DNA from: a virus | DNA: 64,000 bases | Virus record (IMG/VR): IMGVR_UViG_3300025853_008930 | Span: 16,706 to 80,705 of that record | Direction: 5' to 3' (one strand) | Part shown: one piece after another, positions 48,390 to 62,428 of the stretch | Numbering within the stretch: the stretch's first letter is position 1 | Layout: each line of letters begins with the position of its first letter | The notes under the pieces: model-generated | Seen by the model: only the letters and a program-made list of their open reading frames with translations | What the model was told of the DNA's origin: nothing | Databases searched by the model: none | Made by a program: the position numbers and the translations under genes

Positions 48390-49835
48390 ATGGTGATAAA
48401 AATGATAAAAGGAACAATAGAACAAGATGAAATATGGAATGAAATAACAAACACAACCAATGATGTAATAGTCAATGCCGGTGCAGGAACAGGTAAGACT
48501 TTCACAATCGTAGAAGGTGCTAATAGAGCAAATGAAGTAAGAAAGGGTTTTCTATGCTTTAACAAATCTATTCAAACCGAACTACAAGAAAGACTACCCG
48601 AAGGTGTAGAGGCAAAGACATTTCACGCATTGGGTATGAAAGCAGTTAGAGATGTAGTTGGTAAAACTAAAGTAAACAATTGGAAAGTAAAGAATATCAT
48701 TGATACTATTCTAGGCCGTGACTATCACGCACAACCACTTGTCAAACTAATTAGTCTAATCAAAGGCTCAATGGTTGATTGCACTAACGAGCGAGAAATC
48801 TACAAATTAATTGATGAATATAATATTCAATTTCACGATGACCGAGAAGAAGCACTAGGTGTTAGCGTTGTTTGTCAAATACTTGACGAATGTAAATCAA
48901 TCACTCATGAAATTGACTTCGATGATATGATTTGGCTACCACTAGTCAATGGTTATCCTCTACCACAATTTGATATTCTATTCGTTGATGAAGCACAAGA
49001 CTTCAATGAAATGCAAAGACAACTAGTTTTGTCATGCACTAAAAACGGTAGATGTATTATTGTTGGTGACAAGAATCAAGCAATCTATGGCTTTAGAGGA
49101 GCAGATAGCGGTAGTATTGCTATCTTCAAGAATCAACTAGAAGCAAGAGGTAAAACTGTTGTAGAGTTTGGTTTGACTCTAACATGGAGATGTCCTAAGT
49201 TAGTGGTTGCAGAAGCAAACAGATATGTCAAAGACTTCAATTGTTTAGAAACTGCTGAAACAGGTAATGTTCATGTTAATGCGTATCTAAACCCACAGAA
49301 GGGTGACATGGTATTATGCAGATATAATGCACCATTAGTTAGTGCATTCTATGACTTGATTACTCAAGGTAAATCAGCATATATTCTAGGCCGTGACATG
49401 CACAAAGGTTTGGTAAACTATGTCAAAAAGATTACCAAGAACGAAGGTATGTCATCCGAGGAATTTTGCGAACTACTTGAAGTAAGTTATAATGCTGAAT
49501 ATGCTAAGTTGCTTAAGGCTGAAAAGCAAAACCAAGCAAACACACTTAGCGATAAATATGAATGTATCAAGATATTTGCTAGTAAGGCAAACTATGTTGG
49601 TGGCATTATCAAAGAAATCGAAAAACTGTTTAACAGTAAAACAAGAGGCGATATTAAATTATCAACTGTTCACAAGGCTAAAGGTCTTGAGGCTGATAAT
49701 GTATTCATCTTAGCAACTGAAAGAATGCCACATCCAAAAGCATCTAATATGCAAGAGGAAAGAAACATTTGTTATGTTGCTATAACAAGGGCTAAGAAAA
49801 ACCTATATTATTGTGGCCCAAGACCAAAGAATTGA
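48390..49835 (+). CDS. UvrD/Rep-like superfamily 1 helicase
   Basis: AGAGTGKT, VDEAQD, VGDKNQAIYGFRGA, STVHKAKGLE, YVAITRAK. Confidence 0.93.
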   Translation: MVIKMIKGTIEQDEIWNEITNTTNDVIVNAGAGTGKTFTIVEGANRANEVRKGFLCFNKSIQTELQERLPEGVEAKTFHALGMKAVRDVVGKTKVNNWKVKNIIDTILGRDYHAQPLVKLISLIKGSMVDCTNEREIYKLIDEYNIQFHDDREEALGVSVVCQILDECKSITHEIDFDDMIWLPLVNGYPLPQFDILFVDEAQDFNEMQRQLVLSCTKNGRCIIVGDKNQAIYGFRGADSGSIAIFKNQLEARGKTVVEFGLTLTWRCPKLVVAEANRYVKDFNCLETAETGNVHVNAYLNPQKGDMVLCRYNAPLVSAFYDLITQGKSAYILGRDMHKGLVNYVKKITKNEGMSSEEFCELLEVSYNAEYAKLLKAEKQNQANTLSDKYECIKIFASKANYVGGIIKEIEKLFNSKTRGDIKLSTVHKAKGLEADNVFILATERMPHPKASNMQEERNICYVAITRAKKNLYYCGPRPKN

Positions 49836-51139: not shown

Positions 51140-51779
51140 CACAAAAGAAAGGTAATAAACGACAAACTCGCTCAAAGCCTAAAGAAGACTTGAATAAAGA
51201 TGCAGAATATCTTGTAGGTCTAATCAAGGAATTTGATAAGTTTCTCGATGAACACTCTCACCATCGAGTGAGAAAGGTTATCGAAGCCTACAAGAAATTC
51301 TTTAAGGGTCAATTGTGATTGAATGCTTAATTGGCTCAAGCAGTTCTTTGTTAAAGAGCGTAAAGAGAAAATTCCTAAGTGCTACAAATGTGGGTTAGTA
51401 GCATCAACGATGGTGTTTATGGAATTTAAAACAATGGAACTAGAAGAAATAGAAAATAATATTCTAGTTCAACTTTGTAGTCATTGTCATACAGAATTAT
51501 TTGTTTTGTATGACAAAGACTACATCCCACCAATAATAAATAAAAATGGAGATGAAAATAATGGATGAAGAAATATATAAAATAATAACAGATAGTTACG
51601 GGACTGTCTTTGAACCTGCTCCTAGAGAGCAAATAGAAGTGCATAAGAAACATGCAAATGAGGGCATGGATATTGCCCTTCGTCATTTCAAAAGAAACCC
51701 AAGTGCAGAAAATTTCAACTTGCTAAAAGTGGCTATGCTAACTTATCAGTATTGGGTGCAAAAGAGGGTGATGCAATGA
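51136..51779 (+). CDS. Three small hypothetical ORFs (51136-51318; 51323-51568, Zn finger; 51546-51779)
   Basis: Coupled ORFs. Confidence 0.5.
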
Positions 51780-52414
51780 ATATATTTGCACTATCAAAAA
51801 GCCCTGTAGAATCAGCACAACAAATGATAAACAAGCATGTAGTAAAAATGCCAACTGAAACTTGTCAAATGCTACATACTAATGCTTTGTTTAAAGAATA
51901 CACGGATAGATACGGACAAGAACCAACTCTAGCACAACTAAAACAATACCACGAAGATACAGAATCTATCTTAATGAAACCTGCTATGCTTAACCACCCT
52001 AGCACTATTTGGGCTAGACAAAACAATGATAATACTATGTGGTTGTTTGAACATGGTATGGCTCTTTGTGAAGAGTATTCACTAAGATACTACAATAAAA
52101 GACATGGCACTCACAAAAGACTATTACAAACACCAATAGAATATGATGCAGACAGCAGTTTAGCGACACCCGTAACCATTGCTATGTTTGATAGTTATAG
52201 AATACCAAATGAGTATGGAGAACATTGTTGGGAATATGTAGTTGATTCTTATAGACACTACTACCTTGAAGGTAAGTGGAGATTCGCACAGTGGACTAAA
52301 AGAGAAGAACCTAGTTGGTGGCCTAAAAATCATGCCATCAATAAGGGCAATGAAATAATCATAGATTACAACGAAAGATTCGGTGCTAACATAAAACTGT
52401 TGGAGGTAAAATAA
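51752..52414 (+). CDS. Pyrimidine-dimer DNA glycosylase-like (DenV-related) protein
   Basis: MNIF..........KHVVKM..E..QML, NHPSTIW, SYRHYY motifs. Confidence 0.7.
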   Translation: MGAKEGDAMNIFALSKSPVESAQQMINKHVVKMPTETCQMLHTNALFKEYTDRYGQEPTLAQLKQYHEDTESILMKPAMLNHPSTIWARQNNDNTMWLFEHGMALCEEYSLRYYNKRHGTHKRLLQTPIEYDADSSLATPVTIAMFDSYRIPNEYGEHCWEYVVDSYRHYYLEGKWRFAQWTKREEPSWWPKNHAINKGNEIIIDYNERFGANIKLLEVK

Positions 52415-52981
52415 TGGAATGTGAAAAATGTAATGGAACAGGATGGGTAGATAGTTGGAGTATAGGTCACGATGTAATGTTGAAAGAACAATGTTATGAT
52501 TGTATGGCCCACGAAAGAGATAAAGTTCAACTTGGTATGGAAATATCTAAACTACTATCTACTCTTAGTAGAGAGAGACTCGCAATAAATTTAGCCCAAC
52601 TATTAGTAGAGTTGTCGGACAAACACTACGACTTAACTAAACTCGATGAACTAGTTGCGGCTAAAGATAAAGAAGGAATAATGATGGAAATAAAATATAT
52701 GATGTGATAAAATGAAAAAGAATGTAGAATTTAGTATAGTGCAAGATTTAGAGTTACCCCCGTTGGTAATCTCGATGAATGAATATGATGTTCCTAAAGT
52801 TATGTTGAATACTCAACATAAAATATGGTTGTCTTTAAATAGACGATTAATCTTAGGAATCTTTGAAGCCCTGCCGGAAAAACTAGATATGATTTTAGAC
52901 GGTTATCTTAGGGAACAAAGAATGTATGAAATTGATGACAATAACATGCAAAAGCAAATTAACGGTAGAGGTGAAGAATAA
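52414..52981 (+). CDS. Two small hypothetical ORFs (52414-52707 with CxxCxGxG; 52712-52981)
   Basis: ORF track. Confidence 0.55.
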
Positions 52982-53076: not shown

Positions 53077-53193
53077 ATGTGGAAAGGAATTTTGAAAGTA
53101 GCATTTTGGGGAACGGTAGGACTATCAACTGGCTTGGTCGGACTAGCGTTACTAGCACAAGACGACGACTTAGGTAGTGGTCGTTTAGAATAA
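53077..53193 (+). CDS. 38-aa single-TM microprotein
   Basis: Hand-translated MWKGILKVAFWGTVGLSTGLVGLALLAQDDD...; GGAG SD. Confidence 0.5.
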   Translation: MWKGILKVAFWGTVGLSTGLVGLALLAQDDDLGSGRLE

Positions 53194-53211: not shown

Positions 53212-53421
53212 ATGAAAAATATGGTAAAAGTAAGAATATTGAACGAAACAGGACATACGGAACTTCAACTAGAAGTTCAAGAGGTTATTGAGCAAATTGA
53301 CACACACCCTACACATTGGGTTTTCGTTGATGGTGAAATGGTTAGCCGTGAATCTATCAATGAAATCAATTGGGATGCAGTAGACAGCGTTGATTTGACC
53401 CCTGCTATCGTAGGCGGCTGA
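53212..53421 (+). CDS. Ubiquitin-like (ThiS/MoaD/SAMP) beta-grasp protein
   Basis: 69 aa; VFVDGE; ends DSVDLTPAIVGG; followed by a strong hairpin at about 53461-53491. Confidence 0.85.
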   Translation: MKNMVKVRILNETGHTELQLEVQEVIEQIDTHPTHWVFVDGEMVSRESINEINWDAVDSVDLTPAIVGG

Positions 53422-53500
53422 ATTAGTATCTACTGATTCTTCTCAATAATGATGGAAGAGGGGAGAAGGGGTTATTACACTCCTTCTCCCCGTTTGTGGT

Positions 53501-53851
53501 GTGAAGATAGATTATGAGGACTTCATTGAATCCTCTTTCACCATAATAAATGGTTGGGATTACAAGGTTGAATCGTGGATTATAGATAGATTTGAAATGG
53601 TTGTTTCAAGTAGAAGTCAAAAATCCATGATAAAATTTTCAGTAAGTCAATTATTAGACAACATATTATGGGGAGTCCCTATAGCAGTTAATCGAGGTTT
53701 TTATGAATGGAAGATTGAGAATCTTCCTCTTAGATTAGAAGCAATGAAATTCCATAGAGAAAATTGTAGTGGTCATGACAATTGTAAAATGTGTAAGTTA
53801 GAAAAACAATGGAGTGAATTTAATGAAAGAACAAGACCCGAACTATGTTAG
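53501..53851 (+). CDS. Hypothetical protein
   Basis: ORF track. Confidence 0.45.
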   Translation: MKIDYEDFIESSFTIINGWDYKVESWIIDRFEMVVSSRSQKSMIKFSVSQLLDNILWGVPIAVNRGFYEWKIENLPLRLEAMKFHRENCSGHDNCKMCKLEKQWSEFNERTRPELC

Positions 53852-53990
53852 TAGCCATAGAGCGTATAAGAAAAGAATTGCTACTAGATGCCGTGTATGC
53901 GGTGGGCAACTATTATTGCCCGAAGAAATTAAATTAGAAAGGCACAAGAAATGTGTGCCGAAATCAGATTCAAAAATATATATGATGTGA
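53823..53990 (+). CDS. 55-aa Zn-finger microprotein
   Basis: Hand-translated ...RCRVCGGQLLLPEEIKLERHKKC... Confidence 0.5.
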   Translation: MKEQDPNYVSSHRAYKKRIATRCRVCGGQLLLPEEIKLERHKKCVPKSDSKIYMM

Positions 53991-53995
53991 TAAGA

Positions 53996-55162
53996 ATGAA
54001 GAAAATAGAAATTGAAATAAGAAAGCCGGATGATGGAGCCAATTATTATACGACTTATGTAAAGTCCGACCTGCTACGCTACAGTAGAAATAAAACTGTA
54101 AACCCTGATAGGTCAGCAAAAGACCCTTTACATGGAGCGTTAAAGACTATGTTCAAAAACATACTAAAACAACCTAGAACGAATAGATGGGGTTACACTA
54201 ACAAACTAAACTATTTTGGTGAAGGTGATTTTAGTGGAGTATTTTGGATAAAAGAATGTCCAATTGCCCTATCAAGAACCAATGGTAAATTTAGAATAAA
54301 TGGTAAAGCAGAAAGTATGGAAACTATCGCCAATGCTTTTGCTAGAGTTGCATTCAAATCTTGCTTTAGTGATGATAATTCTCAACTAATGCAGACCTTA
54401 TTTACTTCTCTAAGTCTTAGTGAAGATATTAAATATGTATTAGAAAATAGAGTTCCTTATCATTACTTTAGAGATTTTGAAAAGCAAGAAGTTAGACTTA
54501 ATGTTGCTCAAATAGGTGACAAGGAGTTTGCTATTGAAATTGGTGATGGGGTGTGGGGTAATATCTCAATGAAAGATTTACAGTCATTTTGTAACTACTA
54601 TATTCATGGTAAGAAGAATAGTAAGTTTAGAAGAATGGGCCTAAAAAGACTATACGAAGCACTAGTCGGTAGAGAACCACTAGACTCGGACATTAAAGTT
54701 ATGAGGGAGTTTCTAGCACAAAACAGAACCGAAGACCTTATTGAGAATAGAGCCAAAGAACTGTTAAGAGACATCACTAAACAATATCCTAATAGAATTA
54801 AACTAATAGAAGATGAAAACAACGAACCGGAAACAATGTATATTGCAGGTAATGAATACGATTGGAAACTATCTAATAGCAAATACAAGAGCGACATACA
54901 AATGGTATCTACTTTTGTTAGACAGAAGCGAGATATTATTGTTGATGATGAAACCACTAAAGAAGAGTGGTATTGGAGTGGGCCAATATGTATAGATAAT
55001 ATGGCTAGAGGTTCTTCACTAGGCGACCAATTCGCAACTAGGGCATTTGCTCTACTTAATGATAATATGACAGTAGCAAGAGTTAGCACAATTAAAGGCT
55101 ACTTAAAATACAAACCAAATGAAAATGAAAGAGTGGATATAAATGAAATGCATGGAGTGTAA
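53996..55162 (+). CDS. Hypothetical protein within the Ubl module
   Basis: Likely start MKKIEIEI; C-terminal GPICID motif. Confidence 0.6.
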   Translation: MKKIEIEIRKPDDGANYYTTYVKSDLLRYSRNKTVNPDRSAKDPLHGALKTMFKNILKQPRTNRWGYTNKLNYFGEGDFSGVFWIKECPIALSRTNGKFRINGKAESMETIANAFARVAFKSCFSDDNSQLMQTLFTSLSLSEDIKYVLENRVPYHYFRDFEKQEVRLNVAQIGDKEFAIEIGDGVWGNISMKDLQSFCNYYIHGKKNSKFRRMGLKRLYEALVGREPLDSDIKVMREFLAQNRTEDLIENRAKELLRDITKQYPNRIKLIEDENNEPETMYIAGNEYDWKLSNSKYKSDIQMVSTFVRQKRDIIVDDETTKEEWYWSGPICIDNMARGSSLGDQFATRAFALLNDNMTVARVSTIKGYLKYKPNENERVDINEMHGV

Positions 55163-55979
55163 TGGAACACAATTTGAAATGGATGAAAGAATGGGCGAAC
55201 TATCTTGTATAGATTGCGGCTACATAGCAGTAACAGAACTGTTTGAACAAACAACCTTGCCTGTTAATAAAGATGGTGAGTTTATTCATTCTGCTGATAA
55301 GTTATTGGGGTCAAGAACAAACCACAACGAAAAGGCGTGGCTTAGAAATTCTAATCACCATTTAGAGAAAGGGCTTAGAATGTGCAATATGTTATTGGCT
55401 ACATTGATGCCTAATCATCCATTAAAGGATAGAGTAGAAGAGTGTTATATCTCTCTTTATAGAAGTAACACTCTTACTACTTTAGGTGTTGAAGAAAAGG
55501 CAACTGCTGTTGTATATTATGTTCTAAGAGAAAACAGAACACCTGTATCTCTTAAAGAGTTAAGGCAAGAGTTTTCTTGTAATACTAGAACATTAAATCA
55601 AGCAATAAAAAGAATCAACAAGCATTTCAATAATGTAAATGCCTATACTAAGATTGACCCGCATTATATGTTAAAGACGGTTACAAGTAAAATTACTGAT
55701 GACTTAACATTTGCATCTAAATGTCAAGATGTGTTAGAATTATTTGAGCCTCTAACACAAAATGTAGATTGTGTAAAAGGCACAGTATATTATTCTAGTA
55801 TTTGTTGGATTGCCAAGAATATTTACTTGCATCCAATAAAACAGAAAGAGATTGCAGAAAAGGCTAATGTGTCTTTATCTTCAATTAAACTAACCACAAA
55901 GAAACTGTTGGCTTTGATTGGTTATGAAAAATGCTCTCAAGTGAGAGGTAAACAGATAAATGAATTAAGGAGAAATTAA
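55143..55979 (+). CDS. tfb: Transcription factor B (TFIIB) homolog
   Basis: N-terminal CxxC...GEL.CxxCG Zn ribbon and two cyclin-like repeats ending in an HTH (QKEIAEKANVS). Confidence 0.85.
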   Translation: MKCMECNGTQFEMDERMGELSCIDCGYIAVTELFEQTTLPVNKDGEFIHSADKLLGSRTNHNEKAWLRNSNHHLEKGLRMCNMLLATLMPNHPLKDRVEECYISLYRSNTLTTLGVEEKATAVVYYVLRENRTPVSLKELRQEFSCNTRTLNQAIKRINKHFNNVNAYTKIDPHYMLKTVTSKITDDLTFASKCQDVLELFEPLTQNVDCVKGTVYYSSICWIAKNIYLHPIKQKEIAEKANVSLSSIKLTTKKLLALIGYEKCSQVRGKQINELRRN

Positions 55980-55980
55980 A

Positions 55981-56396
55981 ATGATAAATGAAGAATGGAT
56001 TGAATATTATGTATATTTAGAAGAATTACGGCAAAGTGGAGAAACCAATATGTTTGGTGCTACTCCGTATTTGAGAGAAGAATTTGGCTTAGGCCGAAGA
56101 GAAGCAATAAAGATTCTAAGTAGTTGGATGGATAACTACGAAGAACTAGTAGAAAAAGGAATAATAAATAGAGGTGACTAAGTATGAAGGATGAATTACA
56201 ATATCCAACATTAGCAATACAGTTAGTAAATCCACAGGGCATGCCTTATGATATGCCGGATGATTGGATGGAAACCGTTATTTCTATTGCGGCTATGATT
56301 AATGCCAAGTATAAGATTGGCGTTGATACAGTCTATGGAACAGCATCAAGAGAAGGATTTGAGATATTAAGTGAAGAATGTGGACAGGTGGAATAA
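55981..56396 (+). CDS. Two small hypothetical ORFs (55981-56181 with LRQSGETNMFGA; 56184-56396)
   Basis: ORF track. Confidence 0.55.
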
Positions 56397-56398
56397 AA

Positions 56399-56962
56399 AT
56401 GAAAAGAAAAATATTAGTAATTGGAGCAGGTGGAATAGGAAGTTATCTTATTTCATTTTTGAATAACTTAGACTTGTATGAGATACAAGTGAATGACGAT
56501 GATAAAGTAGAGACAAAGAATCTAACATATCAAAACTTCAATAGTGGCGATGTTGGTTTCCATAAAGTCAATAGAATGAAGAATAAGTTTGGAGATACTG
56601 TAAAGGTAGCAAGCCCCTATCCTATCTTAACACCCAATCAACTTGAAGGATTTGACCTAGTAGTTTGTTGTGTAGATAACTTAGGCACTAGAAGAATGCT
56701 TTACAATTCAAATGTAAAGTGGCTAGACCTGCGTTCTCAAGGTAGAAATGCGGCCTATGTTTCTTATCAAGCAGACCCATCAATGTATGATAGTTTGCTA
56801 GCAGGTAAGGAAGGTTCGTTTAGTTGTCAAGGAGAATCATGGGATGGTTCTCAAGAAGGAATACATTTCATGCACATGGCTATTGCAGGTATGGGCGCAC
56901 AATGGATTCAAAGATGGTTTAATGGTGAAAGTGTAAACTCTTTTGCCGTAGTAAATGTATGA
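56399..56962 (+). CDS. ThiF/MoeB/E1-like activating enzyme
   Basis: LVIGAGGIG, DDDKVETKNLTYQ, CCVDN..R motifs; start approximate (MKRKIL). Confidence 0.88.
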   Translation: MKRKILVIGAGGIGSYLISFLNNLDLYEIQVNDDDKVETKNLTYQNFNSGDVGFHKVNRMKNKFGDTVKVASPYPILTPNQLEGFDLVVCCVDNLGTRRMLYNSNVKWLDLRSQGRNAAYVSYQADPSMYDSLLAGKEGSFSCQGESWDGSQEGIHFMHMAIAGMGAQWIQRWFNGESVNSFAVVNV

Positions 56963-56971
56963 GGTGATAAA

Positions 56972-57520
56972 ATGGTAGATATAGAAATAGAAAAATTAGA
57001 AGATGCTAGAGTTAGAGCAGAACAACACATACTGAATGTGTGGGCTGAAGAAGGTATGTTAGAGTTAAATGCTATTGGTGTTGATTGGAATAATAAACAT
57101 AAAGTAGATATGACTTCATATAAAGATAAAAGATTCTTTAATGCTATTTGGCATGCTTCCACAGAAATACTACCTGCCTTAGAAGTGCAAGTGGTTATTG
57201 ATGGTAAGAATGATTGTTATGTTACAACTGGTTCATCCGGCTATGTTGAGTTTGGTATGCAACCTCCTGTTGGTATGAGTTTACCGATTAAGTGTTGGAT
57301 TCACACTCACCCATTCGGTGCGGCTTATTTTAGTGGTGTTGATTGGGGAACAGTAAATGTATGGAAGTCATTAATGCACGAAGCCTATGTATTGGGCGGT
57401 GTAGAACACTATGGTTATTGGCATAATTCAAAGCCGGACTTATTAATGATTAGATACTTGGATGAAAATGGATTAGAGACTTTTAGAGGTCAAGTGCAGA
57501 ATAGAGGTGAAGAAGAATGA
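56972..57520 (+). CDS. JAB/MPN+ metallo-isopeptidase
   Basis: E...WIHTHP....FSGVD JAMM motif. Confidence 0.85.
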   Translation: MVDIEIEKLEDARVRAEQHILNVWAEEGMLELNAIGVDWNNKHKVDMTSYKDKRFFNAIWHASTEILPALEVQVVIDGKNDCYVTTGSSGYVEFGMQPPVGMSLPIKCWIHTHPFGAAYFSGVDWGTVNVWKSLMHEAYVLGGVEHYGYWHNSKPDLLMIRYLDENGLETFRGQVQNRGEEE

Positions 57521-57729
57521 AAGCAGTAGGAAAATGGGTATTAGTAGAAAAAGTAAATGAAAAGAGTGGGGCAATCATATCTAAAGTAGATAACAAAGGC
57601 GTAGTTGTAGACTGTCGCTGTGATAAAAACTTGAGAGATAAGATTGTCTACTTTAATGAAAGAAAAGATTATGTTAAAGTGAACGACTTTATTGCAGTTC
57701 ACTATGATGATATATTGGCGGTGGAATAA
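57517..57729 (+). CDS. groES: GroES-like co-chaperonin
   Basis: MKAVGKWVLV..SGAII...DILAVE; adjacent to GroEL. Confidence 0.75.
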   Translation: MKAVGKWVLVEKVNEKSGAIISKVDNKGVVVDCRCDKNLRDKIVYFNERKDYVKVNDFIAVHYDDILAVE

Positions 57730-59242: not shown

Positions 59243-59966
59243 TTGAAATGTCCGACTTGTTGGAGAAACATGCAAGGATATTACGCTAGAAGATTTGGTA
59301 AGTGTAAATATTGTTTGGAGAGTAGAAAGAAATGATAACAGCAGATGATTGGAAAGGAGAATATAGAGATATTAAATATGAAATATCGGCAGAAAATAAA
59401 GTTAGTAAACCTTTTTTAAAGGTTCTATTCTATGTTTATGATATAGAAATGGATGAATACTTACCTGCTGATGACGAAGATATTGCTCATCATGGTTATA
59501 GTTATACTCTAAAACAAGCACACCAAGTTGCTAGAAGTCTTATAGATGAAAAGTTAGGTGAATACTAATGAAGAAAAGAGCAGTAACAGTAACATTACCT
59601 GCGCCACACAAAGCGCAGATTAAATGCCCTATTTGTAAAGGTAACAAATGTGTTGTTTGTAAGATGACAGGCAACTTAGCAATAGATGTTGCACCAAAGA
59701 TACCAATACAAAGAGCGCACATTATCAAATATGTTATGGAGAACATGCAAGATGTTTCTCAAGAACTAACTAGAATGTATGGCTTAGTGCCGGAGATAGG
59801 AACTAAAGAAGTAGTTGTTGTCAATGAGGGTCAGTATGAGATAGTCCAAGTATCATCTTTAGGTGGTGCTTGTTGGGTAGTAAATAGATTAGATGAATTA
59901 GAAACTCCACGATATTTTACTGCTTTGAAAGACTTAAAGAAATTTAAAGAGGGGTGGATGAGTTGA
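59243..59966 (+). CDS. Small ORFs: 59243-59335 Zn microprotein, 59332-59568, 59568-59966 (CxxC..CxxC)
   Basis: Coupled ORFs; the first was translated by hand. Confidence 0.5.
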
Positions 59967-60160
59967 GTGATTTAGAAACAAAGGGAACAATAGCCCGTAA
60001 CGCAACTGATGAGATATTAGTGAAGCGTGGAAACTATTGGAACATTGAAGTCTTTGATGTTCGTTGGTATAGTAATGATAAACCAACAAGAAAAGGTATT
60101 CGTATGAATATTGAAGAGGCTAAATTATTATTAAAAATATTGGAGAGAGAATTAGAATGA
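59954..60160 (+). CDS. PC4/YdbC-like ssDNA-binding protein
   Basis: FDVRWY...PTRKGIRM motif. Confidence 0.75.
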   Translation: MDELSDLETKGTIARNATDEILVKRGNYWNIEVFDVRWYSNDKPTRKGIRMNIEEAKLLLKILERELE

Positions 60161-60423
60161 CGAAAATAATTAGTGATGTGCAAATAAAGAAATTAATGAG
60201 GGCGTATAACCCTAAAAGAGAATGGTCGGAAGGTTGTGTAGAACAACTTAGACAAAACTCTTGGCAGTTAATCAATTTCATGTTAAGTGAGATTGAAACA
60301 AACATGGAAGGAAATAAAAGAGTTCAATCGCAGGATATTGTTAATGCTTACAATTTTATTGCTAATGCAATAATGTTGGCTAAACAACCTGTATTAAGAC
60401 ATTTCATAGGAGAGGAAGAATAA
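60157..60423 (+). CDS. Putative histone-fold protein
   Basis: IKKLMR / EWSEGCVEQL / GNKRVQSQDI aligns by eye with HMf IGRIIK / RVSDDARITL / GRKTIKAEDI. Confidence 0.55.
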   Translation: MTKIISDVQIKKLMRAYNPKREWSEGCVEQLRQNSWQLINFMLSEIETNMEGNKRVQSQDIVNAYNFIANAIMLAKQPVLRHFIGEEE

Positions 60424-60779
60424 TGTTCAAGTATGTTAGAATTTGGCAGAATGATAAGAAGTTAGACGAATGGGCTAAGAAGGTTAGAAAAGAAATCAAG
60501 AACGAAAGATTGCTAGAAGCCTTTGAGGTAGATTTTAGTCAAATCAAAAGGACTAATGAATTTACAAGAGCATCCTTTGTTATGTATTGGGAAATACAAA
60601 CTAATAGCCAACTGGCTACACTTGCACCACCTTTGGTTCAAGCCACTTTAGTATCTATGACTAATAGATTAGTAGAGATGGAAAGAATGGATGAAGCGCA
60701 AGTAGTTAATGCTATGATGATTAACTTTACTAGAGTATTAGGAATAATCAATAGTGGTGCTAACGATGAAGAAGAGTGA
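60423..60779 (+). CDS. Hypothetical protein
   Basis: Coupled ORF. Confidence 0.55.
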   Translation: MFKYVRIWQNDKKLDEWAKKVRKEIKNERLLEAFEVDFSQIKRTNEFTRASFVMYWEIQTNSQLATLAPPLVQATLVSMTNRLVEMERMDEAQVVNAMMINFTRVLGIINSGANDEEE

Positions 60780-60895: not shown

Positions 60896-62428
60896 ATGAT
60901 AGATTGGAAAATGATGAGCCGGTTGTTAGAATCCACGAAGGGAAAGACACCAACAAAACAAGTAAAATTGATAGCAACAGAACTAGATAAGTTCGATACA
61001 CATAAGAGCGCAGTAATACAATTACTTGCTAGAGAATATCCTAACAATAACATTGGTTTGGCTAAGGCTAAGTCTTGGCTTGCTAAGATGTTTGATTGTT
61101 TTGATGATGAGATAGAAAGCCTATTCGCTATTGATGATGAATTGGGAGAGGCTATCTATATGTTAGATACAAGTGCAGAAACAGAACGAAACATAAGTAT
61201 AACTTCTGTCTTAAGAGTTTTAGAAACTAATTGTGGTGCTGTAGACGATTCTTCTTATCTCTTAGTTAAAGATGTATTATCAAATATGTCAGCATTAGAA
61301 AGAAGGTGGTTTGTTAGATATTGGATTCGTTCCCCTACTAATGGAATAGACGAAGGAGTAGTTAAGAAAGTATTAGCAAAACATTACGATAAGAAACTAA
61401 GTGAAGTTAAGAAACATGCTAACTTCAATACCTTGTATAATGTTACCATGTATTATGAAATGAAAGAAGACCCTCCGTGTAATTTATCACATGGTTCTTT
61501 TGTAAAACCAATGCTAGCAAAGGAAGTTCTTATGAATAAGTGGCCGGAAAATAAGATAGTAGATTACAAGTATGATGGTAACAGATACCAAATACACAAA
61601 CAAGGAGATAATGTAATTATTTTTAATCGTAAAGGCTCTATCGTTACTCCACAGTTTCAAGATGTCGTAGAGACAGTTAGACAGTATGAAGTAGATTGTA
61701 TTCTTGATGGTGAGATATATCCAATTAAGGATGATGGTTCACCTGCTGAACATAAACTAATGGGAACAAGAGTTCATTCTAAAGACCACGCAGAAGCAAG
61801 AGAGAGGGTTAAAGTCAAGTGGGTTATATTTGATTGCCTTAAAATCGGTAATGAAACTATAATGGACTTATCTTATAGCGATAGATTAGGTAAGTTTTCG
61901 CAACTCCCCGACCAAGCACATAGAATGGAAGAGGGCGGTGATGTTCTAGCATTCTATAATAGAGCGATTAACGATGGTTTTGAGGGCATTATTGTCAAAG
62001 ATACTAATTTACCCTATGAGGCAGGTAAAAGAAGCGCAGGATGGGCTAAATACAAGCCTCCTCGCATTGAATTAGATGTGGCTATTACTACTGCTAAATA
62101 TGGCGAAGGCTCAAGAGCAAATGTGTTTGGAACTTTTGGTATTTCTGTAAAGAGTGATAGTGGTTTCAAATCAGTAGGTTCTATCGGAACGGGCTTTAGT
62201 GATGCTGATTTAGTTTGGCTAACTAATGAACTTAGAAAGAATGTAGAGACTTACAACAATGGCACATACAATTTATTACCGAGAGTTGTCTTAGAAGTAT
62301 CAGCAGACTTAGTTACTCAAGATGCAAAGGGCAACTATGGATTAAGATTCCCACGATGTAAAAGAATACGGCATGATAAGTTTGTTGCTGATATAAATAC
62401 AATAGAAGATGTGGAGAGACTACTATGA
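60896..62428 (+). CDS. lig: ATP-dependent DNA ligase
   Basis: KPMLA, YKYDGNR, LDGE, IFD, EGIIVK, WAKYK, LRFPR. Confidence 0.95.
   Translation: MIDWKMMSRLLESTKGKTPTKQVKLIATELDKFDTHKSAVIQLLAREYPNNNIGLAKAKSWLAKMFDCFDDEIESLFAIDDELGEAIYMLDTSAETERNISITSVLRVLETNCGAVDDSSYLLVKDVLSNMSALERRWFVRYWIRSPTNGIDEGVVKKVLAKHYDKKLSEVKKHANFNTLYNVTMYYEMKEDPPCNLSHGSFVKPMLAKEVLMNKWPENKIVDYKYDGNRYQIHKQGDNVIIFNRKGSIVTPQFQDVVETVRQYEVDCILDGEIYPIKDDGSPAEHKLMGTRVHSKDHAEARERVKVKWVIFDCLKIGNETIMDLSYSDRLGKFSQLPDQAHRMEEGGDVLAFYNRAINDGFEGIIVKDTNLPYEAGKRSAGWAKYKPPRIELDVAITTAKYGEGSRANVFGTFGISVKSDSGFKSVGSIGTGFSDADLVWLTNELRKNVETYNNGTYNLLPRVVLEVSADLVTQDAKGNYGLRFPRCKRIRHDKFVADINTIEDVERLL

What the first reader, a model, noticed from the sequence alone, without database searches (positions are those of the whole stretch)
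53212..57520. Virus-encoded ubiquitin-like conjugation kit (Ubl-GG, E1, JAB) surrounding TFB
A beta-grasp protein ending in GG, a compact ThiF/E1 and a JAMM peptidase lie within 4.3 kb, with no thiamine, molybdopterin or tRNA-thiolation genes in the window. This suggests protein conjugation (SAMP-like) rather than sulfur transfer. The intervening ~390-aa ORF with a C-terminal GPICID Cys could be an E2-like or target protein, which is speculative. TFB and the chaperonins are neighbours and possible substrates; a counter-defence role is also possible.
Basis: partly seen in the sequence, partly recalled or inferred. Interest (0 to 1): 0.75.

Follow-up and report, generated by a model that had tools for sequence, protein, structure and literature searches.

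The report
Magrovirus ubiquitin-like protein-tagging gene set
This ocean virus of Marine Group II archaea carries a small ubiquitin-like tag, a miniature activating enzyme, a trimming protease and a probable carrier enzyme. Its host archaea keep the same genes as one chromosomal operon, so the virus most likely tags proteins itself, on targets still unknown.

Summary
Window 53212-57520 encodes:
- a 66-69-aa beta-grasp protein ending AIVGG;
- a 187-aa ThiF/E1-family enzyme;
- a 182-aa JAMM peptidase with the full E...HxHx7SxxD motif;
- a TFB homologue lying between them.

The about 390-aa ORF has a C-terminal domain predicted to adopt a UBC/E2-like fold, with an invariant Cys in GPICID.

All four genes co-occur in every related viral contig that was long enough to judge. 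Four in five relatives carry 1-4 variable residues after the invariant GG, which marks a processed precursor.

Three results from the host archaea (Poseidoniales):
- They encode natural E1-JAB fusion proteins.
- They carry Ubl -> E1-JAB operons.
- In some genomes the operon is complete: E2-like -> Ubl -> E1 -> JAB.

These tie the parts into one system.

No sulfur-acceptor genes were found in six viral genomes. Conjugation is therefore favoured over sulfur transfer, but nothing has been tested biochemically and the E2 call rests on a middling structural score plus gene neighbourhood.

The scan reached similar readings on other magrovirus genomes (e1-6076172, e1-5887222 and others). The searchable literature mentions only the ThiF gene, in passing.

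Verdict: a new variant of a known kind of system.

The parts
53212..53421 (+). Ubl: a 66-69-aa beta-grasp modifier ending AIVGG then stop (likely start 53221). In this genome it is already in the mature form, with no tail.
   Evidence: Model pLDDT 89 with beta-grasp topology. Foldseek and VIA-align hits are ubiquitin, NEDD8, ISG15, MoaD and SAMP1. VGG is kept in all 75 unique relatives, and 59 of them carry 1-4 variable residues after GG.
53460..53491 (+). Terminator-like hairpin (13-bp stem) just after the Ubl gene. The Ubl looks like its own transcription unit.
   Evidence: Consensus scan and direct reading of the sequence. This is a pattern match only.
53501..53851 (+). Conserved 116-aa helical protein of unknown function. 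Membership in the system is unproven.
   Evidence: Found in 50 of 80 related loci at the same position. Alignment. No family hit.
53814..53990 (+). 58-aa C2HC zinc mini-protein that always lies directly upstream of the E2-like gene. Its role is unknown.
   Evidence: Conserved motif AT.CR.CG...E.H..C in 30 representatives. Found in 55 of 80 E1-anchored loci and in 74 of 74 Ubl-anchored loci.
53996..55162 (+). 388-aa protein (ORF opens at 53951) with an N-terminal region of unknown fold. The C-terminal domain (54707-55162) is predicted to be UBC/E2-like. The invariant Cys332 codon lies at 54989-54991, in GPICIDN.
55143..55979 (+). Viral TFB homologue (TFIIB zinc ribbon plus cyclin/HTH region). 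It overlaps the end of the E2-like gene by 20 nt. It is a candidate partner or target, which is inferred only.
   Evidence: Pfam on the family: Zn_Ribbon_TF in 27 of 30 members (best 4.8e-13) and the TFIIB repeat in 11 of 30 (6.5e-12). A related zinc-ribbon gene sits in host Ubl/E1-JAB operons.
55981..56396 (+). Two small variable ORFs (66 aa and 70 aa) between TFB and E1. They are not conserved across the clade and are probably not part of the system.
   Evidence: Found in only 6 and 1 of 80 loci.
56399..56962 (+). Compact E1-like adenylyltransferase (187 aa). It keeps GAGGIGS, D33/D35, K56 and CVDN. It has Tyr where canonical E1s have the Arg of NLxRQ. The invariant Cys143 (codon 56825-56827) lies in SFSCQG. 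It has no zinc CxxC pairs and no rhodanese domain.
   Evidence: Pfam ThiF 1.1e-15. Alignment A3. PDB profile. hhalign to E. coli MoeB prob 96.6 over residues 2-103, and to the host E1-JAB fusion prob 99.5 over residues 8-182. The [SG]CQ Cys is kept in 18 of 18 host E1s.
56972..57520 (+). JAMM/MPN+ metallopeptidase (182 aa). The catalytic Glu71 codon is at 57182-57184. The HxHx7SxxD motif spans 57302-57343.
   Evidence: Alignment A4 invariants. Prok-JAB in 41 of 43 relatives. The PDB profile hits only JAMM deubiquitinases. The motif is intact in all 73 unique genome sets, including 16 whose Ubl has no tail.

Best explanation
The virus carries a four-part ubiquitin-like protein-conjugation system that is homologous to a chromosomal operon of its Poseidoniales (Marine Group II) hosts.

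Proposed mechanism:
- The beta-grasp Ubl is made, in most relatives, as a precursor with 1-4 extra residues after an invariant Gly-Gly.
- The JAMM peptidase removes that tail and later removes the Ubl from its targets.
- The compact E1 adenylates the exposed Gly-Gly carboxylate with ATP, and perhaps holds the Ubl on its invariant Cys143.
- The C-terminal UBC-like domain of the 388-aa protein takes the Ubl onto its invariant Cys332 and passes it to lysines of target proteins.
- The targets are unknown. The linked TFB-type transcription factor is the most obvious candidate.

Shown here: the folds and families, the catalytic motifs, the precursor tails, the gene linkage in virus and host, and the E1-JAB fusion.

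Inferred: every chemical step, the role of the E2-like domain, and the targets.
For: The parts are what they seem.
- Ubl beta-grasp.
- E1 family, with the nucleotide and Mg residues kept.
- Full JAMM motif.

Precursor signature.
- VGG is invariant in 75 unique relatives.
- 59 of them carry 29 different tails of 1-4 residues.
- Host Ubls carry tails of 1 or 8 residues.

Evidence for one system.
- E1 and JAB co-occur in 79 of 80 E1-anchored loci.
- The E2-like gene, E1 and JAB are present in 74 of 74 Ubl-anchored loci.
- Natural E1-JAB fusion proteins of about 400 aa exist in Poseidoniales and Thalassarchaeaceae.
- A Ubl homologue (HMM E 1e-14) lies directly upstream of those fusions.
- 121 of 201 sampled Poseidoniales genomes carry the E1/JAB pair.

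Evidence for the E2-like part.
- By linear mapping, the invariant Cys332 lies within 0-5 residues of the catalytic Cys of E2S, Ube2K and UbcH7.
- C-I-D resembles the canonical E2 C-L-D.
- Host homologues keep the same xCI[DNQH]...GD[QR].A..L.L.ND motif and lie in operons in three arrangements. These are E2-like -> Ubl -> E1 -> JAB (L196, L197), E2-like -> E1 -> JAB (L198) and E1 -> JAB -> E2-like (L183, L184).

Evidence against sulfur transfer.
- No PP-loop (ATP_bind_3), PAPS-reductase or rhodanese genes were found in the own record or in five 100%-complete relatives.
- MoaE, ThiG and cysteine desulfurase were not found in the own record.
- JAB stays intact in 16 genomes whose Ubl needs no trimming.
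Against: - There is no biochemical evidence of any kind.
- The E2-like call has no sequence support. PDB profiles, Pfam, PADLOC, the Atlas and hhalign to a Prok-E2_D protein all gave nothing.
- There is no HPN motif.
- The E1 lacks the canonical Arg of NLxRQ (Tyr in the virus, His in hosts), the N-terminal Arg helix and the zinc motifs. Its C-terminal half aligns to no solved E1, so both adenylation competence and the role of Cys143 are assumed.
- By sequence identity the Ubl is closest to the sulfur carriers MoaD and CysO (20-23%).
- JAMM trimming of GG+2 tails also occurs in sulfur-carrier pathways (QbsE/QbsD; from my own knowledge).
- In most host genomes the best E2-like homologue lies about 120-135 kb from E1.
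Confidence: 0.55

Rival explanations
1. E2-independent, SAMP-like conjugation. The Ubl, E1 and JAB form the whole machine, as in Haloferax SAMP/UbaA/HvJAMM1. The 388-aa Cys protein would then be a substrate, an adaptor or a transcription-linked partner of TFB rather than a carrier enzyme.
For: - Archaeal sampylation needs no E2 (my own knowledge; PMC2948915 and PMC4895103).
- The fused-type host operons (L174, L180, L181, L188, L189) hold Ubl, E1-JAB and a zinc-ribbon/TFB-like gene but no adjacent full E2-like gene.
Against: - The invariant Cys and its flanking motif are conserved from virus to host.
- The UBC-type topology is consistent across about 40 of the top 50 structural rows.
- The domain lies in the same operon as Ubl, E1 and JAB in at least five host genomes, in three different gene orders.
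Confidence: 0.2
2. Sulfur-carrier pathway. The E1 adenylates the Ubl and a host sulfurtransferase converts it to a thiocarboxylate, which donates sulfur to a tRNA, cofactor or metabolite. JAB only trims the tail or releases a product, as QbsD and Mec+ do. The Cys protein acts as a persulfide relay.
For: - The top VIA-align rows include MoaD, CysO and SAMP1, with the highest identities (20-23%).
- The C-terminal pattern resembles ThiS/MoaD (reading by eye).
- The best NCBIfam E-values for the E1 are ThiF and MoeB types.
- Tails after GG that are trimmed by a JAMM enzyme are known from thioquinolobactin synthesis (my own knowledge).
Against: - No rhodanese, PP-loop thiolase or PAPS-reductase was found in six viral genomes. 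MoaE, ThiG and cysteine desulfurase were not found in the own record, and the window has no tRNA.
- The E1 has no rhodanese domain.
- The partner Cys domain is predicted to be UBC-like rather than rhodanese-like.
- JAB is retained where no tail exists.
- The genes sit among replication, repair and transcription genes rather than metabolic genes.
Confidence: 0.18
3. Other ThiF-type chemistry on the Ubl C-terminus. This could be nucleotidylation, amidation or cyclisation in the manner of MccB or PaaA, giving a modified small protein rather than protein conjugates.
For: - MccB is among the best PDB matches of the E1 profile (2.5e-9).
- The E1 is atypical: no Arg finger and a divergent C-terminal half.
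Against: - The substrate is a folded beta-grasp protein with a Gly-Gly end, not a short peptide.
- A JAMM peptidase and a UBC-like Cys domain accompany it.
Confidence: 0.05
4. The genes are merely neighbours in a collinear core genome and do not work together.
For: - In the virus the Ubl lies 3-7 kb from E1, with unrelated genes between them (a ribonucleotide reductase in many relatives).
- All core genes of a clade co-occur by default.
Against: - E1 and JAB are fused into one polypeptide in the hosts.
- Tight host operons hold the Ubl, and in some genomes also the E2-like gene.
Confidence: 0.02

Closest known systems
Bacterial BilABCD operons (Ubl BilA, E2 BilB, JAB BilC, E1 BilD; PMC10557695) and the Ubl/E2/E1/JAB cassettes of Iyer, Burroughs and Aravind 2006 (PMC1779556)
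   Different: - None of the Ubl, the E2-like protein or JAB hits a PADLOC model.
- The E1 is about 187 aa, has no Arg finger, and aligns to Cap2-type models only over its first 60-100 residues.
- This set is carried by a virus and by archaea, not by a bacterial defence island.
PRTRC cassette of bacterial plasmids (Prok_Ub, Prok-E2_D, DUF2016+Prok-JAB, PRTRC ThiF)
   Same: PRTRC ThiF proteins are the plasmid hits that cover most of the viral E1 (27-33% identity, up to residues 2-174). hhalign gives prob 96.9. The cassette has the same four roles.
   Different: - hhalign finds no similarity between the viral Ubl and Prok_Ub, or between the E2-like domain and Prok-E2_D. JAB similarity is weak.
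- PRTRC ThiF keeps the Arg of NxxRQ.
- In the E1 tree PRTRC ThiF is a long-branch outgroup.
Archaeal SAMP / UbaA / HvJAMM1 system of Haloferax volcanii (PMC4443979, PMC4895103)
   Same: It is an archaeal system with a beta-grasp GG modifier of MoaD/ThiS type, an E1-like activator and a JAMM deconjugase. A basal transcription factor (TBP2) is a known sampylation target, which echoes the TFB linkage seen here.
   Different: - UbaA is about 270 aa with zinc motifs and works without an E2. The viral E1 scores 39 bits against the UbaA model, whose cut-off is 450.
- SAMPs also serve as sulfur carriers.
- A dedicated UBC-like Cys protein is linked here.
Bub pathway (peptidase-E1 fusion BubCD, E2 BubB, Ubl BubA; PMC11601596)
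   Different: - Bub works through oxyesters and its E1 lacks a catalytic Cys.
- Its domain order is peptidase then E1. Here the order is E1 then JAB, and invariant Cys residues are present in both the E1 and the E2-like domain.
Eukaryote-like Ub operon of Caldiarchaeum subterraneum (Ub, E1, E2, small RING, Rpn11; PMC3082918, PMC5654768)
   Same: It is an archaeal operon with a modifier, E1, E2 and a JAMM enzyme. Its Rpn11-like protein (6fjv) is among the PDB profile hits of the viral JAB. A small zinc protein also accompanies the set.
   Different: - Those proteins are recognisable by sequence as ubiquitin, UBA and UBC families. The magrovirus and Poseidoniales proteins are not.
- The 58-aa C2HC protein has four ligands, so it is not a RING.
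E1-like genes noted in archaeal viruses (RaFAH, PMC8276007; Asgard Nidhogg viruses, 10.1101/2021.07.29.454249)
   Same: RaFAH reports a MoeB/ThiF gene as one of the most prevalent auxiliary genes of archaeal viruses and speculates about ubiquitination. That gene is probably this family.
   Different: Only the E1 was noticed. The Ubl precursor, the JAMM peptidase, the E2-like protein and the homologous host operon are not described there or in the magrovirus papers searched.

Membership tests
E1 / ThiF superfamily (PF00899) | Rossmann-type nucleotide-binding fold with a GxGxxG motif, and sequence membership above the curated cut-off | tested here: met
   Pfam ThiF 57.9 bits against a cut-off of 28.1. 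GxGGIGS is invariant. hhalign to E. coli MoeB gives prob 96.6.
E1 / ThiF superfamily (PF00899) | Mg-binding Asp of the xDN motif, and the conserved Lys and Asp that bind ATP | tested here: met
   D33, D35, K56, D93 and N94 are invariant and align with the DFD, K and DCTDN of MoeB.
E1 / ThiF superfamily (PF00899) | Arg of the NLxRQ motif (the arginine finger) | tested here: not met
   This position is invariant Tyr (KNLTYQ) in 31 viral sequences and His (NLxHQ) in 18 host sequences. MoeB, MccB and PRTRC ThiF all keep Arg.
E1 / ThiF superfamily (PF00899) | Catalytic Cys in the crossover loop (thioester-forming E1s) | tested here: inconclusive
   An invariant Cys143 ([SG]CQ) is present in all viral and host members.
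MoeB / ThiF / UbaA orthologues | Score above the equivalog cut-offs, zinc-binding CxxC pairs, and about 240-270 aa | tested here: not met
   NCBIfam scores are ThiF 46.9 (cut-off 275), UbaA 39.3 (cut-off 450) and MoeB 35.5 (cut-off 449). There are no CxxC pairs, and the protein is 187 aa.
JAMM / MPN+ metallopeptidases | Catalytic Glu plus the HxHx7SxxD zinc site | tested here: met
   E71, H111, H113, S121 and D124 are invariant in 43 sequences. Prok-JAB is hit by 41 of 43 members. The PDB profile hits only AMSH, Sst2 and Rpn11.
Beta-grasp ubiquitin-like modifiers | Beta-grasp fold with a flexible C-terminal tail ending Gly-Gly | tested here: met
   Model pLDDT 89. Foldseek prob about 1 to ubiquitin, NEDD8 and ISG15. 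VGG is kept in all 75 unique relatives.
ThiS / MoaD (PF02597) or Prok_Ub (PF14454) | Sequence membership | tested here: not met
   Only 1 of 32 members touches ThiS, at E 0.061. The PDB profile finds nothing. hhalign to a Prok_Ub protein gives prob 0.1.
E2 / UBC fold enzymes | UBC fold: an N-terminal helix, a beta-meander, an active-site loop, then C-terminal helices | tested here: inconclusive
E2 / UBC fold enzymes | Catalytic Cys after the last strand | tested here: inconclusive
   The invariant C332 follows strand 320-331 directly. Linear mapping of the aligned ranges puts it within 0-5 residues of the catalytic Cys of E2S, Ube2K and UbcH7. No residue-level superposition was available.
E2 / UBC fold enzymes | HPN motif, and sequence membership in UQ_con or a Prok-E2 family | tested here: not met
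   Nothing from Pfam, PDB, PADLOC or NCBIfam. hhalign to Prok-E2_D gives prob 0.2. No HPN is present upstream of the Cys.
E2 / UBC fold enzymes | Forms a Ubl thioester and transfers the Ubl to targets | not testable with these tools
TFB / TFIIB | N-terminal TFIIB zinc ribbon plus cyclin repeats | tested here: met
   Zn_Ribbon_TF in 27 of 30 family members (best 4.8e-13) and the TFIIB repeat in 11 of 30 (6.5e-12). The window protein itself is just below the cut-off for the ribbon (26 bits against 29).

The most novel reading that the evidence does not exclude
Poseidoniales archaea and their magroviruses run parallel, separately evolving ubiquitin-like cascades: a compact E1 without an Arg finger, a new UBC-like carrier family and a JAMM enzyme. 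The natural targets would include TFB-type transcription factors. On this reading the virus brings its own cascade to tag, and so redirect or destroy, components of host or viral transcription during infection. That would be a virus-versus-host contest fought with ubiquitin-like tags in one of the most abundant microbe-virus pairs in the surface ocean.
Probability: 0.15. Interest if true: 0.9.

Novelty: new variant of a known kind. Interest (0 to 1): 0.75.

Why it matters
Magroviruses are reported to be among the most abundant viruses of the surface ocean (PMC5434244). Neither they nor their hosts have been cultured.

If the reading holds, every member of this clade injects a complete protein-tagging system into its host. 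Outside eukaryotic viruses that would be a rare case of a virus owning the whole cascade rather than hijacking the host's.

The host-side operon would be an undescribed archaeal Ubl system. It was found in at least 121 of 201 sampled Poseidoniales genomes.

All parts are small and soluble-looking. Reconstitution in E. coli is therefore feasible and would directly test whether an E1 without the arginine finger can activate a Ubl.

The recurring link to TFB-type genes gives a concrete first substrate to test.

Tried and rejected
Searches that found nothing.
- blastn of the region against 50,697 phage records: no match.
- PHROGs: only unnamed families for E1 and TFB.
- Ubl sequence searches (Pfam on 32 members, PDB profile): nothing significant. 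There were recurring weak hits to the PinA inhibitor family (best 0.006), which I treat as noise.
- E2-like protein:
  - Foldseek against PDB gave only spurious rows with low TM-scores.
  - The ESM Atlas gave no usable hit for the whole protein or for residues 240-388.
  - PDB profiles of the whole protein and of the C-domain found nothing at E up to 10.
  - Pfam on 42 viral members and on 10 host homologues found nothing.
  - PADLOC and NCBIfam found nothing.
  - hhalign to a Prok-E2_D protein found nothing.
  - An exhaustive HMMER search gave 201 representatives. All 150 listed are strong family members, and none forms a bridge to a known E2 family.
- hhalign of the E2-like protein against the host 370-aa zinc-ribbon protein: nothing.
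- The full-length E2-like profile found no match in four host genomes. The C-domain profile did find matches.
- TFB by phmmer against PDB: nothing.
- hhalign of viral TFB against the L189 host protein: weak (prob 4.8).

As a result no Ubl-E1 docking, no expression data and no exact-contig look-up could be obtained.

The E1 C-terminal half and the isolated E2-like domain were therefore not folded.

An idea considered and dropped: that the 58-aa zinc protein is a RING-type E3. It has only four ligands.

Full report
**What the window is**

The window is bases 16706-80705 of an 80.7-kb viral record, estimated 86% complete. Earlier notes of this scan call it a magrovirus, a tailed virus of Marine Group II archaea. 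My results fit that:
- relatives are 90-97-kb IMG/VR contigs;
- the region has GroEL, a TFB homologue, an ATP-dependent DNA ligase, a UvrD-type helicase and a T4 endonuclease V-like glycosylase;
- the closest cellular homologues of the genes studied here come from Poseidoniales genomes.

The finding lies in the + strand arm, which holds replication, repair and transcription genes.

**The observation**

All three claimed genes are real.

The E1 (56399-56962) passes the Pfam ThiF cut-off. It keeps GxGGIGS, the two Asp, the Lys and the CxDN Mg site.

The JAB protein (56972-57520) misses Pfam by itself, but 41 of 43 relatives hit Prok-JAB. The Glu, HxH, Ser and Asp of the JAMM site are invariant.

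The gene between them is a genuine TFB homologue.

**The Ubl is made as a precursor**

Across 75 unique relatives the last residues before the end are always VGG, and AIVGG in nearly all. Only 16 stop there.

The other 59 continue with 1-4 residues of 29 different kinds: CY, SL, NL, Q, SC, NEEE and so on. An invariant Gly-Gly followed by a hypervariable stub is the signature of a modifier whose tail is cut off before use.

The window's own Ubl is already in the mature form. The JAMM site is nevertheless intact in all 16 genomes that need no trimming. That suggests a second job for the peptidase, such as deconjugation. This is an inference.

**Do the genes work together?**

Within the viral clade they always co-occur:
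- E1 with JAB in 79 of 80 E1-anchored loci;
- the 388-aa gene, TFB, E1 and JAB in 74 of 74 Ubl-anchored loci with enough sequence.

The gene order is fixed. Unrelated insertions do occur, such as a ribonucleotide reductase after the Ubl in many relatives. Co-occurrence inside one collinear clade is weak evidence by itself.

The decisive evidence came from a search for longer relatives of the E1. It found proteins of about 400 aa. Their first half aligns with the whole viral E1, including the invariant Cys (hhalign prob 99.5, 37% identity, residues 8-182). Their second half is a clear homologue of the viral JAB, with the same WIHxHP...AYxSxxD site.

These E1-JAB fusions are annotated as coming from Candidatus Poseidoniales and Thalassarchaeaceae, the presumed hosts. 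In genome contigs up to 2 Mb long, the gene directly upstream encodes a 71-76-aa homologue of the viral Ubl (HMM E about 1e-14). It ends GG plus one residue: F, Q, Y, E, L or N.

In 201 sampled genomes of the order, 121 carry the E1/JAB pair. About 20 have the fused form and about 100 have adjacent split genes.

In an E1 tree the 31 viral sequences form one clade (support 97/94). The 18 host sequences form another (92/89). E. coli MoeB and a PRTRC ThiF are long-branch outgroups. The split between the viral and host versions is therefore old and probably single. The direction of transfer is not resolved.

**The 388-aa protein**

The protein has no sequence relative outside its own family. That family has 201 representatives at 50% identity.

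The order of elements fits a UBC fold: a long helix, a beta-meander, a loop, then three to four helices. The invariant Cys332 sits right after the last strand. Mapping the aligned ranges linearly puts it within 0-5 residues of the catalytic Cys of E2S, Ube2K and UbcH7. The catalytic positions for these enzymes are partly from my own knowledge, and Ube2K C92 is named in the entry title. C-I-D also recalls the canonical C-L-D.

These scores are middling by the tool's own standard. There is no HPN motif and no profile-level similarity to any E2 family. On structure alone the call is only plausible.

Gene neighbourhood in the hosts strengthens it. A profile of the C-domain matches 75 of 201 Poseidoniales genomes. 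All matches keep the Cys and the following GD[QR].A..L.L.ND motif. Several of them lie next to the E1/JAB pair, in three different arrangements:
- E2-like -> Ubl (with an 8-residue tail) -> E1 -> JAB, in L196 and L197;
- E2-like -> E1 -> JAB, in L198;
- E1 -> JAB -> E2-like, in L183 and L184 (hhalign prob 60%, E 8e-5, with the Cys aligned).

Other homologues, including the best-scoring ones, lie about 120-135 kb away from E1. The link is therefore frequent but not universal.

**The E1 is unusual**

It is about 187 aa and starts directly at the first Rossmann strand. It has no zinc CxxC pairs and no rhodanese domain.

It has Tyr where all characterised E1s compared here have the Arg of NLxRQ. 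The hosts have His at that position.

Only its first 100-113 residues align with MoeB or PRTRC ThiF. Its best-covering matches among plasmid genes are PRTRC ThiF proteins. Those sit in a Prok_Ub / Prok-E2_D / JAB / ThiF cassette. The other three PRTRC proteins show little or no similarity to the viral ones.

Whether the invariant Cys143 is the thioester Cys could not be tested.

**Conjugation or sulfur transfer?**

The own record and five complete relatives contain no PP-loop thiolase (ATP_bind_3), no PAPS-reductase-type enzyme and no rhodanese. MoaE, ThiG and cysteine desulfurase were not found in the own record, and the window has no tRNA gene. Host enzymes could still serve, so the sulfur-carrier reading is weakened but not excluded.

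I put conjugation through an E2-like carrier at 0.55 on three grounds:
- a UBC-like Cys partner is present;
- JAB is retained where no trimming is needed;
- the genes sit among replication, repair and transcription genes.

I give E2-independent SAMP-like conjugation 0.2 and sulfur transfer 0.18.

**TFB linkage**

In the virus the TFB gene overlaps the end of the E2-like gene and precedes E1.

In the five fused-type host loci, the second gene after E1-JAB encodes a zinc-ribbon protein of about 370 aa. hhalign links its family to the viral TFB family at prob 75% (E 2.5e-5). In L188 the ribbon aligns with the viral TFB ribbon at prob 94% (HMM E 6e-9). In L189 the match is weak.

This recurring neighbour makes a TFB-type factor the first substrate or partner worth testing. 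It proves nothing more than that. Sampylation of TBP2 in Haloferax (PMC4895103) is a loose precedent.

**What is known**

The magrovirus papers I could read do not mention ThiF, JAB or ubiquitin. The supplements of the founding paper are not held.

RaFAH notes a MoeB/ThiF gene as a prevalent auxiliary gene of archaeal viruses and speculates about ubiquitination. An Asgard-virus preprint notes E1-like genes. No paper in the library links Poseidoniales to such a system.

Public annotations call the E1 hypothetical, or a D-arabinose 1-dehydrogenase-like protein.

This scan has reached similar readings on other magrovirus genomes. Those are AI notes and not independent evidence. I re-derived the shared claims here.

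The system is best filed as a new variant of the prokaryotic Ubl/E1/E2/JAB kind (Bil, PRTRC, Bub, SAMP). It is not a member of any of those families.

Noticed in passing
window 53078-53193 (+): A 38-aa ORF just upstream of the Ubl begins MWKGILK and continues as a hydrophobic segment.
   Followed up: no
window, coding-strand ORFs, for example 52712-52981, 56972-57520, 60157-60423, 60423-60779: 9 of 107 coding-strand ORFs of at least 50 aa end in EE or EEE, often as GEEE. None of 111 ORFs on the non-coding strand do. The JAB proteins of nearly all relatives also end in EEE. This could be an acidic C-terminal tag, or a purine-rich ribosome-binding site of the next gene read in frame.
   Followed up: partly
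window 57517-57729 (+): A 70-aa ORF directly upstream of GroEL is conserved in 67 of 80 loci and sits where GroES would be, but it has no Pfam hit. The founding magrovirus paper assumed that no co-chaperonin is encoded.
   Followed up: no
L018:1365-3236, L076:1726-3630 and many other relatives: In many relatives a ribonucleotide reductase-like gene of about 620-630 aa is inserted between the Ubl and the next conserved gene. It is absent from this window.
   Followed up: no
window 51752-52414, 48390-49835, 59954-60160, 60896-62428: The neighbours are repair and replication genes: a pyrimidine-dimer DNA glycosylase (Pyr_excise 1.8e-8), a UvrD-type helicase, a PC4-like protein (8.8e-5, below the cut-off) and an ATP-dependent DNA ligase.
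   Followed up: partly
L174:12573-16038 (-), with equivalents in L173 and L175: In the fused-type host loci, two large convergent ORFs (about 550 and 600 aa) begin with CxxC zinc-ribbon motifs and have no Pfam family. The 552-aa one has a weak match (E 1e-3 to 5e-5) to the Cys/GDQ motif of the E2-like domain.
   Followed up: partly
L177 (Thermoplasmatota MAG, 95-kb contig): This contig has a split arrangement of Ubl, JAB and, about 1 kb further on, E1. Its E1 sits on a long branch among the host sequences. The contig size resembles a magrovirus genome, so it may be a mis-binned or integrated virus.
   Followed up: no
alignment A2 (Ubl family): Three His residues and the motifs NETGHT and HPTHW are invariant or nearly so on the small Ubl. 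This is unusual for a beta-grasp modifier and might mark a metal site or the E1/JAB recognition surface.
   Followed up: no
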